DNA of 13,650 bases from a virus. Below the pieces are notes generated by a model. That model saw nothing but the letters and a program-made list of their open reading frames with translations. It did not search any database and was not told the origin of the DNA. Positions 8,104 to 11,494 of this stretch are shown here, piece by piece; the stretch's first letter is position 1, and each line of letters starts with the position of its first letter. The stretch lies in UHGV virus genome UHGV-0359675, one strand, 5' to 3'. Position numbers and translations under genes: made by a program.

Positions 8104-8754
8104 ATGAAAACTCAATTGATGGGAGAGCGCATTCGCGCTCGGAGAAAAGAACTCAAGATCAGGCAGGCCGCACTTGGAAAGATGGTCGGCGTGTCTAATG
8201 TTGCCATATCTCAGTGGGAACGCTCTGAGACAGAGCCAAATGGAGAGAATCTTCTCGCCCTGGCTAATGCGTTGAAGTGTTCCCCTGACTATCTGATGAA
8301 AGGAGAGGAAAGTCTTTCAAACATTGCCTATCACAGTAGGCATGATCCAAGAGGGTCATACCCTCTGATTAGCTGGGTGAGCGCAGGATGCTGGATGGAA
8401 GCTGTAGAACCATATCATAAGCGTGCAATAGATAACTGGTACGATACAACCGTAGACTGTTCAGAAGATTCGTTTTGGTTGGACGTGAAGGGAGACTCAA
8501 TGACGGCTCCGGCCGGTCTCAGTATCCCTGAAGGAATGATAATACTCGTCGATCCTGAAGTAGAGCCGCGTAACGGGAAACTGGTAGTTGCAAAGCTCGA
8601 AGGAGAAAACGAGGCAACTTTCAAGAAGTTAGTTATTGATGCAGGCAGGAAGTTTCTAAAACCACTTAACCCACAATATCCGATGATCGAGATCAACGGA
8701 AACTGCAAAATCATCGGCGTAGTTGTCGATGCAAAACTAGCAAACCTTCCATAA
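8104..8754 (+). CDS. c2: Prophage repressor C2/CI (HTH N-terminal domain, LexA-like S24 autocleavage C-terminal domain)
   Basis: 216 aa, near-identical to recalled P22 C2 (MxTQLMGERIRARRK.LKIRQAALGKMVGVSNVAISQWERSETEPNGENLLAL...). GDSM serine motif and the downstream Lys are present. Confidence 0.9.
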   Translation: MKTQLMGERIRARRKELKIRQAALGKMVGVSNVAISQWERSETEPNGENLLALANALKCSPDYLMKGEESLSNIAYHSRHDPRGSYPLISWVSAGCWMEAVEPYHKRAIDNWYDTTVDCSEDSFWLDVKGDSMTAPAGLSIPEGMIILVDPEVEPRNGKLVVAKLEGENEATFKKLVIDAGRKFLKPLNPQYPMIEINGNCKIIGVVVDAKLANLP

Positions 8755-8821: not shown

Positions 8822-8875
8822 ATTTAAGTTTTCTTCAAAAATACTCTTGACCATTAATTAAAGAGATCTTAAATT
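8822..8875 (+). promoter_or_regulatory. OL operators and pL promoter
   Basis: Operator-like 18-mers ATTTAAGTTTTCTTCAAA (8822-8839) and ATTAAAGAGATCTTAAAT (8857-8874). -35 TTGACC (8847-8852), 17-nt spacer, -10 TAAATT (8870-8875), directed toward nutL and N. Confidence 0.55.
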
Positions 8876-8920
8876 TAAGCCATCAGCAGGACGCTGGAAG
8901 CCAAACGGAAAAGATTGGCA

Positions 8921-8962
8921 GGCTCTTTAACATTGATGGGATTGTCCCGCCGAAATGCGGGA
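8921..8962 (+). promoter_or_regulatory. nutL: boxA (GGCTCTTTAACA) plus boxB hairpin
   Basis: boxA-like GGCTCTTTAACA at 8921-8932. boxB TCCCGC-cgaaat-GCGGGA at 8945-8962, sharing the 19-nt core TCCCGCCGAAATGCGGGAA with nutR in transcript sense. Confidence 0.6.
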
Positions 8963-9275
8963 ACCAAAGAGTAGTTGGCTTTGGGGTGACGTGAAGTGCA
9001 GCTGCACGACGGCAACCGGAAGATAAGCACCCGGCGCGTCACCGCCAAAGTCAATTCCATAGGCGTTATGCAGCCGCCACCATATTCAAGAAAGCTGCAC
9101 AAGAGGTAGGAGGATTTATGTGAATACTTACATTCAATTGAGAGATTAATTAAATAGAACTGATCGAGCAGAGTCCATAAAGGCTCATAAATGCTCTTCC
9201 ATCCCCGTCTAATTGGCGGGGAAGGAAACCACTTTGTAATAAAAAAATTCCAAAGTTGTTTCATCGGAGGTCAAC

Positions 9276-9575
9276 ATGACAGTAGTCATTACATATCTGG
9301 CTGACGATAACGCCAGAAATCGCCGCAGAGCACGCAGACAGGCTCAACGTGAACAGGCAATGCAAGAACAGCGACTGGCGCGAAAGATTGCGCTAAAGCT
9401 CTCTGGTTGCGTCAGAGCAGACAAAGCAGCATCACTCGGAAGCCTTCGCTGCAAGAAGGCAGAAGAAGTCGAGAGTAAACAGAATCGTATTTACTACCGC
9501 AAGCCACGCAGTGAAATGGGGGTGACTTGTGTTGGTCGCCAGAAAATGAAATTAGGAAGCAAACCACTTATTTGA
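9276..9575 (+). CDS. N: Antitermination protein N (lambda/21-type C terminus, distinct arginine-rich motif)
   Basis: 99 aa. N-terminal arginine-rich motif NARNRRRARRQAQREQ. C-terminal ...NRIYYRKPRSEMGVTCVGRQKMKLGSKPLI parallels recalled lambda N (...RTWYSKPGERGITCSGRQKIKGKSIPLI). Shine-Dalgarno GGAGG upstream. Confidence 0.8.
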   Translation: MTVVITYLADDNARNRRRARRQAQREQAMQEQRLARKIALKLSGCVRADKAASLGSLRCKKAEEVESKQNRIYYRKPRSEMGVTCVGRQKMKLGSKPLI

Positions 9576-9583
9576 GGTGATAT

Positions 9584-9670
9584 ATGGAAGAAGAATTTGA
9601 AGAGTTCGAAGAGCATCCGCAGGATGTGATGGAACAATACCAGGACTATCCTTATGACTACGACTATTGA
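9584..9670 (+). CDS. Candidate 28-aa highly acidic micro-protein (MEEEFEEFEEHPQDVMEQYQDYPYDYDY)
   Basis: Strong Shine-Dalgarno GAGGTG 5 nt upstream, overlapping the N stop. Hand-translated; below the 60-aa ORF-track cutoff. The same 17-nt initiation region recurs at 9904-9920. Confidence 0.35.
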   Translation: MEEEFEEFEEHPQDVMEQYQDYPYDYDY

Positions 9671-9854
9671 TAAGAATCAATGGTGTGGACAATTCAAGCG
9701 ATGCAATGGATGCAAGCTGCAATCGGAATGTATGGTTAAGCCTGAAGAAATGTTTCCTGTAATGGAAGATGGGAAATATGTCGATAAATGGGCAATACGA
9801 ACGACGGCAATGATTGCCAGAGAACTTAGTAAACAGAATAACAAGGCTGCCTGA
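9654..9854 (+). CDS. ral: Restriction-alleviation protein Ral-like
   Basis: 66 aa MTTTIDKNQWCGQFKRCNGCKLQSECMVKPEEMFPVMEDGKYVDKWAIRTTAMIARELSKQNNKAA matches my recollection of lambda Ral (66 aa). Position just downstream of N in the pL operon fits. Confidence 0.55.
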   Translation: MTTTIDKNQWCGQFKRCNGCKLQSECMVKPEEMFPVMEDGKYVDKWAIRTTAMIARELSKQNNKAA

Positions 9855-9912
9855 TGGTGGCCTTTATTTTTGTCCGTAAATAATTTCATGCTTATTACAA
9901 TCAAGGTGATAT

Positions 9913-10335
9913 ATGGAAGAACAAGCAAACAAGATTCTCGTAGAACTTCTGCAAAAAGCCAGTAATGGAATAGACGCGGCTGTTTCATTTAGCCAGGCAC
10001 AGATTCCTGATGTTGTTCGTCAGTTGCTAACATGGAGTTTTGTCCATAGCGCACTTTTCCAAGTGGCTGGGTTGTTGCTTTTAATTGCAGCAATGAAACT
10101 TCCTAGTTTTGCAAGAACGGCAAGAAATAATGGCGAGAGATGGACGTCTTTAGATGGATGTCCAAACGATAGATATTTTATATCTTCGTTTTATTACGAT
10201 ATATGCACTGTATTTGCTCCTATATTTGGCTCAATTATTGGCGTTTTAATTATTGCCTTCAATTTCGAATGGTTGAAGATTTGGCTTGCACCTAAGTTAT
10301 TCCTAATTGAATATGCAGCATCATTGGTTAAGTAA
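9913..10335 (+). CDS. Hypothetical 140-aa membrane protein with two predicted TM helices; possible superinfection-exclusion function (positional inference only)
   Basis: Hydrophobic segments SFVHSALFQVAGLLLLIAAMKL and FAPIFGSIIGVLIIAFNFEWLKIW. Follows ral, where lambda and P22 carry sieB. An intrinsic terminator follows at 10340-10366. Confidence 0.5.
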   Translation: MEEQANKILVELLQKASNGIDAAVSFSQAQIPDVVRQLLTWSFVHSALFQVAGLLLLIAAMKLPSFARTARNNGERWTSLDGCPNDRYFISSFYYDICTVFAPIFGSIIGVLIIAFNFEWLKIWLAPKLFLIEYAASLVK

Positions 10336-10339
10336 TTTC

Positions 10340-10366
10340 AGGCCGCATAGTCGGCCTTTATTTTTG
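10340..10366 (+). terminator. Intrinsic terminator after the membrane-protein gene
   Basis: AGGCCG-catagt-CGGCCT followed by TTATTTTTGG. Confidence 0.55.
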
Positions 10367-10484
10367 GCATAAACAACAGAATAAACACTGCACTGTGTAT
10401 TCATTCCAACGAGTGAATACACGGAGCAATGTCGCTCGTAACTAAACAGGAGCCGACTTGTTCTGATTGTTGGAAATCTTCTTT

Positions 10485-10512
10485 GCCCTCCAGTGTGAGG
10501 GCAATTTTTTTT
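10485..10512 (+). terminator. Intrinsic terminator immediately upstream of the 10525 gene start
   Basis: GCCCTC-cagtgt-GAGGGC followed by AATTTTTTTT, ending 13 nt before the GGAGG Shine-Dalgarno and ATG at 10525. Confidence 0.6.
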
Positions 10513-10524
10513 GATGGAGGATAT

Positions 10525-10875
10525 ATGAGTGAAGTAACAGATTTAGTTGTTATTGAAAAAGCAAATGCAATGACTGTATTTCAGTCTGCCGACCAGATTG
10601 AAGAAATTCTCCAAAAGGTTGAACGTGAAGTTATGTCATTTGTGCCTGATATCACAACGGCAAAGGGCAGAAAGGAGATCGCTTCTCTGGCGTATAAAGT
10701 TGCGCAGACGAAAACATATCTCGATGGTCTTGGCAAAGACCTTGTTGCTGAACTGAAGGAAATTCCAAAGCTAATTGATGCCAACCGCAAGACAGTGCGC
10801 GATCGCCTTGATGAACTGAAAGCCAAGGCGCGCCAGCCTCTTACTGATTATGAGGAAGAATCAGGCGCGGATTAA
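10525..10875 (+). CDS. Hypothetical 116-aa protein (predicted helical/coiled-coil)
   Basis: Start chosen at the internal Met with Shine-Dalgarno GGAGG (MSEVTDLVVIEKANAMTVF...). The upstream in-frame extension of the track ORF (from 10429) runs through the terminator and is rejected. Confidence 0.55.
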   Translation: MSEVTDLVVIEKANAMTVFQSADQIEEILQKVEREVMSFVPDITTAKGRKEIASLAYKVAQTKTYLDGLGKDLVAELKEIPKLIDANRKTVRDRLDELKAKARQPLTDYEEESGAD

Positions 10876-11494
10876 AGCCGAAGAAGAAGCTAAGGCAGCA
10901 GCTGAAGCTCTCGCAAAGCAAATTGAGTCTGACCATGAAATAGCGATTTTGATGGATCGCGAATTTGACCGCCAAAGAGAAGAGGCAAGACTCAAAGCGG
11001 AGCAGGAAAAGCGAGAGCATGAAGAACGATTAAAAAGAGAAGCTGAAGAGAAAGCCAGAGCAGAAGCCGAAGCAAAGGCAAAAGCCGAAATTGAAGCAGC
11101 AGCAAGGCGAGAAGCAGAAGCTAAGGCCGCAGCGGAACGTGCAGAGCGTGAACGCATTGAAGCCGAGCAACGAGCACAGCGCGAAGCAAAAGAGGCAGCA
11201 GAACGAGCTGAAAGAGAAAAGCAGGCAGCAATTGAAGCAGAACGCAGAAAAGCACAGGAGGAGGCTGAACGAATCCGTCGCGAGGCTGAAGCAAAAGAGC
11301 AAGCCAGAATAGCAGAAGAAAAAAGAATCAAGGACGAAGAAGAGCGTAGAGCAAAGGATAAAGCTCACCGGAAAGAAGTAAATAACAAAATACTTGCTGA
11401 CCTTATCAAGGTTGGCGCATCAGAAGATGTTGCTAAAAATATCATAACAGCCATCGTAAAAGGCGAAGTATTCGCAACAAAAATAACCTACTAA
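10850..11494 (+). CDS. Hypothetical 214-aa protein with a long E/R/K/A-rich predicted single alpha-helix or coiled-coil and a short C-terminal domain
   Basis: Overlaps the preceding ORF by 26 nt in the +1 frame with no obvious Shine-Dalgarno. About 150 residues of EAEAKAKAE / REAEAKAAAERAERE-type repeats. The start is uncertain; this may be a frameshifted continuation of the upstream ORF. Confidence 0.5.
   Translation: MRKNQARIKAEEEAKAAAEALAKQIESDHEIAILMDREFDRQREEARLKAEQEKREHEERLKREAEEKARAEAEAKAKAEIEAAARREAEAKAAAERAERERIEAEQRAQREAKEAAERAEREKQAAIEAERRKAQEEAERIRREAEAKEQARIAEEKRIKDEEERRAKDKAHRKEVNNKILADLIKVGASEDVAKNIITAIVKGEVFATKITY

What the first reader, a model, noticed from the sequence alone, without database searches (positions are those of the whole stretch)
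9576..9921. 28-aa hyper-acidic micro-ORF after N, with its initiation region duplicated 330 bp downstream
GGTGATATATGGAAGAA occurs at 9576-9592 and 9904-9920, each supplying a Shine-Dalgarno and an MEE start. The first begins MEEEFEEFEEHPQDVMEQYQDYPYDYDY (13 of 28 residues acidic, 6 Tyr); the second begins the 140-aa membrane protein. GGCCTTTATTTTTG also recurs at 9859-9872 and 10353-10366. The repeated linkers look like module boundaries used for cassette exchange. An acidic, aromatic-rich peptide next to the restriction-alleviation gene could be a small DNA-mimic or regulatory peptide, or just a coupling device.
Basis: seen in the sequence. Interest (0 to 1): 0.5.

Follow-up and report, generated by a model that had tools for sequence, protein, structure and literature searches.

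The report
Lambda orf28 micro-gene beside ral
The 28-codon acidic ORF is the unannotated CUS-3 copy of phage lambda's uncharacterised gene orf28; it is a real, selected micro-protein gene that travels with restriction-alleviation genes, and the repeated sequences around it are joints where gene cassettes have been swapped.

Summary
The window is phage CUS-3, read in the direction of its early-left (pL) operon: N, 28-aa ORF, ral, membrane-protein gene.

- **Identity.** The micro-ORF is lambda orf28 (phrog_16060). Lambda annotates it. CUS-3, Sf6 and NCBI's annotation of E. coli genomes do not.
- **Coding evidence.** It is intact, in frame and overlaps the ral start in every ral locus examined, from Escherichia to Proteus, Pantoea and Erwinia. 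Variation falls on third codon positions (31 of 41 variants). Its dN/dS of about 0.1 matches ral's.
- **Independence from ral.** It persists under the same selection where ral is absent. Twice, independently, it sits directly after a Lar-family restriction-alleviation gene. Its core motif (HPxDxMxQYQDY) also forms the C-terminal tail of four unrelated small proteins.
- **Repeats.** The 18-mer and the 14-mer are cassette joints. Relatives lack exactly the 329-bp orf28–ral unit or the 494-bp membrane-gene unit, with the junction inside the repeat.

A pure translational-coupling role is disfavoured. An accessory anti-restriction peptide is the best, still inferred, reading.

The parts
9276..9575 (+). 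N-type transcription antiterminator gene (99 aa). Its TGA stop (9573-9575) overlaps the Shine-Dalgarno sequence of the micro-ORF.
   Evidence: phrog_271, E 1e-36. Annotated as N in CUS-3.
9575..9592 (+). 18-mer copy 1, AGGTGATATATGGAAGAA. It supplies the Shine-Dalgarno sequence and the ATG-GAA-GAA start of orf28, and is the left joint of the 329-bp orf28-ral cassette.
9584..9670 (+). Homologue of lambda orf28: a 28-aa acidic micro-protein gene with net charge about -12. It is not annotated in CUS-3.
   Evidence: phrog_16060, 28/28 positions, E 7e-19. Lambda annotation lambdap47. Coding signature.
9654..9854 (+). ral, the restriction-alleviation gene (66 aa). Its start lies 17 nt inside orf28.
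   Evidence: PF11058, E 4e-48. Annotated in CUS-3.
9843..9872 (+). Terminator-like hairpin plus T-tract directly after ral. Its 3' arm and tail form 14-mer copy 1 (9859-9872), the left joint of the 494-bp membrane-gene cassette.
9873..9903 (+). 31-nt spacer, found only between ral's terminator and the second 18-mer in the loci examined.
9904..9921 (+). 18-mer copy 2. It supplies the Shine-Dalgarno sequence and the MEE start of the membrane-protein gene, and is the right joint of the orf28-ral cassette.
9913..10335 (+). 140-aa protein of unknown function with two hydrophobic segments (phrog_3054).
   Evidence: Family variants seen.
10340..10366 (+). Terminator-like hairpin plus T-tract after the membrane-protein gene. 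It contains 14-mer copy 2 (10353-10366), the right joint of that cassette.

Best explanation
**Shown: a real micro-protein gene.** The 28-codon ORF is the CUS-3 copy of lambda orf28. It sits in the early-left (pL) operon directly after N, so it should be among the first phage products made. That timing is inferred from its position. Its stop lies 17 nt inside ral, so ribosomes finishing orf28 end on the ral initiation region and coupling to ral is possible. Coupling is not its only role.

**Inferred: its function.** The peptide is a portable acidic and aromatic tail module with core motif F-[DE]-x-H-P-x-D-x-M-x-Q-Y-Q-D-Y. I infer that it docks on a host target and acts together with the small Cys-rich restriction-alleviation proteins Ral or Lar against type I restriction-modification enzymes. 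It may bind the enzyme itself or the Ral/Lar protein.

**Shown: the repeats are recombination joints.** The duplicated 18-mer (Shine-Dalgarno sequence plus MEE start) and the duplicated 14-mer (terminator 3' arm plus T-tract) are short shared sequences. Each cassette begins with a ribosome-binding site and start codon and ends with a stop and terminator. Cassettes of this kind have been gained or lost in lambdoid phages at these sequences.
For: **Identity**
- 100% identical to CUS-3.
- 97.5% nucleotide identity to lambda orf28-ral.
- Lambda annotates orf28 with the same overlap on ral.
- Full-length match to phrog_16060.

**Coding**
- Intact and in frame in 63 unique ral-upstream sequences, in six P22-like Salmonella phages, and in Providencia, Proteus, Pantoea, Erwinia and Kluyvera loci. 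All length changes are multiples of 3, and ATG-to-GTG start changes keep a valid start codon.
- 31 of 41 variant alleles fall at codon position 3 (p = 4e-8).
- Synonymous fraction is 0.49 against 0.18 expected (p = 6e-6).
- pN is 0.02-0.23 and dN/dS is 0.06-0.15 where it can be estimated, comparable to ral.

**Independence from ral**
- About 16 unique ral-less contexts follow at least four different upstream flanks.
- They keep the third-position bias outside the ascertained motif: 20 of 27 variants (p = 2e-5).

**Link to restriction alleviation**
- 125 of 154 untruncated unique contexts have an apparently intact ral downstream by a motif test.
- In one ral-less clade the micro-ORF start overlaps the stop of a Lar-family gene (PF14354, 36.2 bits against a cut-off of 28.6; phrog_599).
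- In Klebsiella-phage contigs, a second Lar gene (47 bits) overlaps a 56-aa protein that carries the motif as its tail.
- A related fused protein overlaps a Ral gene.
- Ral and Lar both enhance type I methylation (PMC2993543).

**Portable tail**
- The motif is the C-terminus of four unrelated N-domains.

**Joints**
Against: - There is no direct evidence of translation or of any activity. The lambda ribosome-profiling paper could not be read.
- Lambda orf28 is non-essential in a CRISPRi screen (PMC10695390). That is expected for an accessory gene but gives no functional support.
- Lar-family genes are common in phage early regions, so two adjacencies could be coincidence.
- Several ral-less contexts (L254/L271/L276, L273, L277, L294) have no recognisable restriction-alleviation neighbour.
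- The N-domains of the fusion proteins have unknown function.
- AlphaFold2 on a natural Orf28-Ral fusion gave no confident contact (pLDDT about 50 in the peptide).
- The family is narrow. An exhaustive profile search of 1.84 billion proteins added nothing new.
Confidence: 0.6

Rival explanations
1. orf28 is only a leader ORF. Its translation delivers ribosomes to ral (translational coupling) and the peptide itself has no function.
For: - The orf28 stop lies 17 nt (11 nt in some relatives) inside ral.
- The ral Shine-Dalgarno sequence AGGA lies inside orf28.
- Most occurrences precede ral.
Against: - Amino-acid-level purifying selection holds across the part upstream of the ral RBS.
- The ORF is kept and still selected where ral is precisely absent or internally deleted.
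- The motif occurs as the tail of other proteins.
- The fold around the ral RBS is not unusually stable, with a z-score of -1.5.
Confidence: 0.07
2. orf28 encodes a functional micro-protein whose target has nothing to do with restriction. For example, it could be a docking or decoy peptide for another host protein. Its position next to ral or lar would then only reflect clustering of early accessory genes.
For: - Several ral-less contexts have no Ral or Lar neighbour.
- The fused N-domains belong to families of unknown function, phrog_25582 and phrog_8760.
- One fusion locus lies near an AcrIF11-like gene, which suggests a general anti-defence neighbourhood.
Against: - Overlapping gene boundaries with Ral downstream and with Lar upstream occur in three independent arrangements.
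- About 80% of unique contexts carry ral.
Confidence: 0.28
3. The ORF is not translated. Its conservation reflects a nucleic-acid element such as an RNA structure or a promoter region.
For: - It is not annotated by most pipelines.
- It is only 87 nt long.
Against: - Variants fall 5, 5 and 31 at codon positions 1, 2 and 3, and synonymous changes are in excess only in this frame.
- No minus-strand ORF of at least 20 aa lies in the frame whose third positions coincide with those of orf28.
- Every free-standing copy keeps a start codon, ATG or GTG.
- Insertions and deletions are multiples of 3.
- No significant RNA fold was found.
Confidence: 0.03
4. The two 18-mers are alike because both genes converged on a strong ribosome-binding site and an MEE start, not because recombination happened there.
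For: - The repeat is made of a Shine-Dalgarno sequence, a spacer and a start codon.
- The same 17-mer also precedes a few unrelated ORFs in viral contigs.
Against: - The two copies share 18 of 18 nt, including the spacer.
- The membrane-protein gene is joined to at least four different upstream flanks, and orf28 to at least five, at the same point.
- BLAST segments of arrangement-C contigs abut at window 9592 and 9904, with the 18-mer shared between them.
Confidence: 0.08

Closest known systems
Phage lambda orf28 (lambdap47, NP_040623.1; phrog_16060)
   Same: - Same peptide. 175 of 196 collected copies, including lambda's, encode the same peptide as this window.
- Same position upstream of ral.
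- Same 17-nt overlap with ral.
- Same 18-mer at the start.
   Different: - In lambda and P22 the gene follows the antisense sieB gene rather than N directly.
- Lambda annotates it only as a hypothetical protein. No function is reported in the searchable literature.
Boundary ('bsq') or linker sequences of lambdoid phages, annotated in the Sf6 and CUS-3 records. The concept comes from the HK620 and Sf6 genome papers; this attribution is from my own knowledge.
   Same: They are short sequences shared between otherwise unrelated modules, lying exactly where modules are present or absent in relatives.
   Different: - The 18-mer and 14-mer described here are not among the bsq features annotated in CUS-3. 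Its only bsq feature in the stretch examined, bsq5, lies between cI and N.
- Sf6 bsq4 lies just downstream of the second 14-mer.
DNA-mimic anti-restriction proteins Ocr and ArdA
   Same: They are strongly acidic early proteins that act against type I restriction-modification enzymes (PMC9410887). Orf28 has a net charge of about -12 and sits with anti-type-I genes.
   Different: - Ocr and ArdA are folded dimers of roughly 110-170 aa that imitate B-form DNA (size from my own knowledge). Orf28 is 22-30 aa.
- Orf28 matches no Pfam, NCBIfam or PDB entry.
- Mimicry by Orf28 is untested.
T4 Stp, a 26-residue peptide that inhibits the type Ic enzyme EcoprrI (recalled from memory, not checked here)
   Same: A very short phage peptide that acts on a type I restriction-modification enzyme. 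It is the closest analogy for how Orf28 might work.
   Different: - Stp is basic rather than acidic.
- No sequence relationship was tested or claimed.
- The literature search for Stp failed on a term-length error.
Ral (PF11058) and Lar (PF14354) restriction-alleviation proteins
   Same: They are the genes physically overlapping the micro-ORF. Both enhance type I methylation of unmodified DNA (PMC2993543; PMC12707154).
   Different: Orf28 is not homologous to either. It is a separate, much smaller and acidic product.

Membership tests
Lambda orf28 family (phrog_16060) | Full-length match to the family profile | tested here: met
   E 7e-19, positions 1-28 of 28.
Lambda orf28 family (phrog_16060) | Lies immediately upstream of ral, with its stop inside the ral start region | tested here: met
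   9584-9670 against ral 9654-9854, a 17-nt overlap, as in lambda (34271-34357 against 34087-34287).
Lambda orf28 family (phrog_16060) | Conserved core motif F-x-x-H-P-x-D-x-M-x-Q-Y-Q-D-Y | tested here: met
   F8, H11, P12, D14, M16, Y19, Q20 and Y22 are invariant in the alignment of divergent homologues.
Lambdoid boundary/linker sequences | A short sequence shared by otherwise non-homologous flanks | tested here: met
   The 18-mer and the 14-mer each occur twice, against 0.01 expected by chance.
Lambdoid boundary/linker sequences | Relatives differ by the presence or absence of the module, with the junction in the shared sequence | tested here: met
   Contigs L022, L041, L062, L067, L070 and L104 lack exactly window 9593-9921. 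Lambda-type loci lack the unit between the two 14-mers.
Lambdoid boundary/linker sequences | Recombination is actually catalysed at these sequences | not testable with these tools
   This needs recombination assays.
DNA-mimic anti-restriction proteins (Ocr/ArdA type) | Strongly acidic surface | tested here: met
   12 of 28 residues are acidic; charge -12.4 at pH 7.
DNA-mimic anti-restriction proteins (Ocr/ArdA type) | A folded domain of about 100 aa or more that imitates B-form DNA, or sequence or structure similarity to known mimics | tested here: not met
   Only 28 aa. No Pfam, NCBIfam or PDB match. The AlphaFold2 model has low confidence in the peptide.
DNA-mimic anti-restriction proteins (Ocr/ArdA type) | Binds the DNA groove of the type I methyltransferase and blocks restriction | not testable with these tools
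   This needs biochemistry or a multimer structure prediction.
Translational-coupling leader ORF | Stop/start overlap with the downstream gene | tested here: met
   17-nt overlap here; 11 nt in Erwinia, Kluyvera and L262.
Translational-coupling leader ORF | The peptide sequence is free to vary; only translation matters | tested here: not met
   dN/dS is about 0.06-0.15 and 31 of 41 variants fall at codon position 3.
Translational-coupling leader ORF | Exists only together with the gene it serves | tested here: not met
   ral-less copies occur, followed directly by a terminator, and are still under selection.
Intrinsic terminators (for the 14-mers) | A G+C-rich hairpin followed by a T-run, placed after a stop codon | tested here: met
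   Hairpins at 9843-9864 and 10340-10357, each with a TTATTTTT tail. The scan found 8 sites against 1.8 expected. Termination activity itself was not tested.

The most novel reading that the evidence does not exclude
Orf28 peptides could be an unrecognised class of anti-restriction micro-protein. On this reading they are a portable acidic and aromatic tail of about 25 residues. It is used free-standing or fused to small zinc-ribbon proteins. It docks on type I restriction-modification enzymes, or on Ral/Lar, and is needed for full Ral- or Lar-type restriction alleviation. That would mean lambda's classic 'ral' function is really a two-gene module.
Probability: 0.3. Interest if true: 0.75.

Novelty: new member of a known kind. 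Interest (0 to 1): 0.5.

Why it matters
- **An overlooked lambda gene.** Lambda has carried an annotated but unstudied 28-codon gene next to ral for four decades. This analysis shows it is as strongly selected as ral.
- **Widespread and unannotated.** At least 80% of window 9560-9925 is present in 786 of 5426 complete E. coli genomes. In the two RefSeq E. coli records examined it is not annotated.
- **A functional lead.** It is repeatedly tied to two unrelated restriction-alleviation families.
- **What it could explain.** If the peptide takes part in restriction alleviation, that might explain why cloned ral alone had little effect in one study (PMC9410887). It would add a very small anti-defence effector.
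- **Cassette grammar.** The joints give a clean worked example of how lambdoid early operons are rebuilt from cassettes that run from ribosome-binding site and start codon to terminator.

Tried and rejected
- **Family libraries.** Pfam and NCBIfam gave nothing for the peptide or for the 140-aa protein.
- **Solved structures.** A PDB profile search found no hit.
- **Large-database search with the peptide.** I worked around this with a padded alignment.
- **Exhaustive profile search.** Scoring 1.84 billion representatives added no new fusion partners.
- **RNA structure masking the ral RBS.** The fold z-score is -1.5, which is not significant. The hairpin at 9658-9688 cannot be separated from the conserved TIDxNQW codons of ral.
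- **AlphaFold2 on a natural in-frame Orf28-Ral fusion (P0011).** Mean pLDDT was 62 and about 50 in the peptide, so the model is uninformative. MAFFT could not align the peptides and the Ral homologues to that fusion in one alignment.
- **Acidic tail folding back on a basic zinc domain.** This idea is weakened because the fused N-domains carry net charges of -0.2 to -7.
- **Ribosome-profiling evidence for lambda.** The paper is not held in the library.
- **Literature on orf28 function.** The name appears only in strain lists and in a non-essentiality table.
- **Genome-collection scan with Ral.** Most hits were lambda DNA contaminating assemblies of unrelated organisms. Only the Providencia and Kluyvera loci were informative.
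- **tblastn with the peptide against phages.** Most copies were masked, presumably by the low-complexity filter. The search still exposed the two fusion proteins.

Full report
**1. What the window is**

Window 9200-10450 is 100% identical to Enterobacteria phage CUS-3, a P22-like prophage of E. coli K1 strain RS218. The + strand runs in the direction of the early-left (pL) operon:

| Feature | Coordinates |
|---|---|
| cI repressor | 8104-8754 |
| N-type antiterminator | 9276-9575 |
| 28-codon ORF | 9584-9670 |
| ral | 9654-9854 |
| 140-aa protein with two hydrophobic segments | 9913-10335 |

Further early genes follow, leading to cIII, kil and erf.

**2. The observation**

- Both repeats are real and far above chance.
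- The 17-mer extends to 18 nt, at 9575-9592 and 9904-9921.
- The peptide has 12 acidic residues and 5 Tyr, not 13 and 6.
- The 14-mers are the 3' arm and T-tract of two terminator-like hairpins. One follows the ral stop (9843-9864). The other follows the stop of the 140-aa gene (10340-10357).

**3. Identity of the micro-ORF**

- Lambda's RefSeq record annotates orf28 (lambdap47, 34271-34357) overlapping the start of ral (34087-34287), exactly as here.
- The window is 97.5% identical to lambda across this stretch.
- The peptide matches phrog_16060 over all 28 positions (E 7e-19).
- The gene is not annotated in CUS-3 or Sf6. It is also not annotated in the two RefSeq E. coli records examined, although 786 of 5426 complete E. 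coli genomes carry at least 80% of window 9560-9925.
- Prodigal's 90-nt minimum gene length would exclude an 87-nt gene. This point is from my own knowledge.
- In the searchable literature orf28 appears only in strain genotypes (Δorf28-ral; PMC2327257) and as non-essential in a CRISPRi screen (PMC10695390).

**4. Is it a gene?**

I collected ral loci from viral contigs, genomes, phage records and metagenomes.

- The ORF is intact and in the same frame relative to ral in 63 unique upstream sequences and in P22, SF11, ST64T, SW-70, BTP1 and UPF_BP1.
- It is also intact in divergent loci whose Ral is only 60-75% identical: Providencia, Kluyvera, Proteus, Erwinia and Pantoea.
- Length differences are multiples of three. 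They include a 6-nt deletion in the overlap that preserves both frames.
- Where the ATG is lost, a GTG replaces it (Kluyvera, Proteus, and the Lar-linked clade).
- In the part not overlapped by ral, 31 of 41 variant alleles fall at codon position 3 (p = 4e-8). The synonymous fraction is 0.49 against 0.18 expected (p = 6e-6). The other two frames show no such excess.
- Pairwise pN is 0.02-0.23, against 0.03-0.33 for ral. dN/dS is 0.06-0.15 where it can be estimated.
- No minus-strand ORF of at least 20 aa lies in the frame whose third positions would coincide with those of orf28.

I take protein-level selection as shown. Translation itself is inferred.

**5. More than a coupling device**

- A back-translated motif scan of viral and metagenomic contigs found copies without ral. 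In these, the micro-ORF stop is followed directly by the GGCTGCC…GCAGCC-T-run terminator that normally follows ral.
- These ral-less copies follow at least four different upstream flanks: a Lar gene, two kinds of N-type gene end, and a Pantoea-type flank.
- Outside the nine codons fixed by my search pattern, they still place 20 of 27 variants at position 3 (p = 2e-5). The non-synonymous changes are mostly E/D and Y/F.
- Five further contexts have a recurrent internal deletion of ral with orf28 intact.

**6. Functional lead**

- In the largest ral-less clade, the micro-ORF's GTG start overlaps the stop of a 77-aa gene. That gene passes Pfam's threshold for Lar_restr_allev (36.2 bits against 28.6) and matches phrog_599.
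- In Klebsiella-phage-like contigs a different Lar gene (47 bits) overlaps by 4 nt a 56-aa Cys-rich protein. The last 20 or so residues of that protein are the Orf28 motif.
- A divergent member of that fused family overlaps a Ral gene by 17 nt.
- The motif is also the extreme C-terminus of three other unrelated N-domains: a CxxC…CxxC zinc ribbon (phrog_25582), a helical domain (phrog_8760) and an 81-aa Brenneria phage protein. All of these tails hit phrog_16060.
- Ral and Lar are unrelated proteins that both enhance type I methylation of unmodified DNA (PMC2993543; PMC12707154).

Gene-boundary overlap with both families, together with use as a portable tail, makes an accessory role in type I restriction alleviation the best-supported reading. 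It remains an inference. Several contexts lack any recognisable partner. The fused N-domains are not basic. AlphaFold2 gave no confident model.

**7. The repeats**

Three arrangements occur in nature, where X and Z are the outer flanks:

| Arrangement | Layout | Examples |
|---|---|---|
| A | X-18mer-orf28-ral-14mer-spacer-18mer-membrane gene-14mer-Z | CUS-3, Sf6 |
| B | X-18mer-orf28-ral-14mer-Z | lambda type |
| C | X-18mer-membrane gene | several viral contigs |

- In arrangement C contigs, BLAST segments end at window 9592 and resume at 9904, sharing the 18-mer. Exactly one 329-bp unit is therefore missing.
- The membrane-protein gene is joined to at least four upstream flanks, and orf28 to at least five, at this one point.
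- This fits the 'boundary sequence' idea that the Sf6 and CUS-3 annotators recorded for other sites.
- Each cassette therefore starts with a shared ribosome-binding site and start codon and ends with a shared terminator half.

**8. Verdict**

The finding is real. It is largely explained by known things: lambda orf28 and lambdoid mosaic joints. What this analysis adds, and what I did not find in the searchable literature, is threefold:

- orf28 is as constrained as ral.
- It is independent of ral.
- It is linked to two restriction-alleviation families as a portable tail.

That last point is a testable lead rather than a result. Interest is moderate.

Noticed in passing
window 10429-10875 and 10850-11494: The 148-aa and 214-aa ORFs together match one 362-position family (phrog_1376). 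NCBI's annotation of the identical E. coli NU14 prophage marks them as a single frameshifted 'TolA' gene. Sf6 has one 322-aa gene at this position. This could be a pseudogene, a sequencing issue or a programmed frameshift.
   Followed up: no
window 9913-10335 and viral contigs: The membrane-protein family keeps the same N-terminal 35 or so residues and the same C-terminal 21 residues (WLKIWLAPKLYLIEYAASLVK). It has three alternative middle segments, giving 121-, 140- and 149-aa forms, so the gene looks internally mosaic.
   Followed up: no
L003 (lambda) and L229 (P22), the flank upstream of orf28; compare window 9480-9575: In lambda and P22, the DNA between the sieB start and orf28 reads like a remnant of the 3' end of a phage-21-type N gene (YYRNPLF against YYRKP…KPLI*). 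A deletion between GCAA[GA]CCAC repeats would account for the difference. This suggests orf28-ral once sat directly after such an N gene, as it does in CUS-3.
   Followed up: partly
L016, L069, L095, L101, L112, L148: The same internal deletion of ral (…WCGQ joined to …RTTAMIA) recurs in several contigs while orf28 stays intact.
   Followed up: partly
window 10385-10432: An inverted repeat with 22-nt arms (82% complementary, 4-nt loop) lies in the conserved stretch after the second 14-mer, within the region corresponding to Sf6 'bsq4'. Its role is unknown.
   Followed up: no
window 9220-9234 and 9555-9569: GGAAG[G/C]AAACCACTT occurs upstream of the N start and again at the N 3' end, 335 nt apart (14 of 15 nt identical). 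It may be another joint flanking the N module, or it may be chance.
   Followed up: no
window 8875-9264, minus strand: A 129-aa ORF lies between cI and N, inside the CUS-3 'bsq5' feature, and is annotated as hypothetical in E. coli NU14. It could be a prophage-expressed extra gene.
   Followed up: no
proteins P0001, P0005, P0011: Public assemblies contain in-frame Orf28-Ral fusion products. One is a frameshift after QYQ, in a cluster of 76 member sequences. Another is an in-frame deletion of Ral residues 1-9. These may be real variants or assembly errors.
   Followed up: partly
L015 (viral contig), at the 17-mer: One contig has a chimeric start. The first 24 nt are those of the membrane-protein gene, and the sequence then continues as orf28 out of frame (MEEQALKSSKSILRM*). 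It looks like a crossover a few bases beyond the 18-mer that destroyed orf28.
   Followed up: partly
L124-L139 and similar genome contigs: Near-identical lambda ral DNA turns up in assemblies of unrelated organisms (Nocardioides, Paenibacillus, Shewanella, Bradyrhizobium and others). This is most likely lambda control DNA contaminating those assemblies.
   Followed up: no
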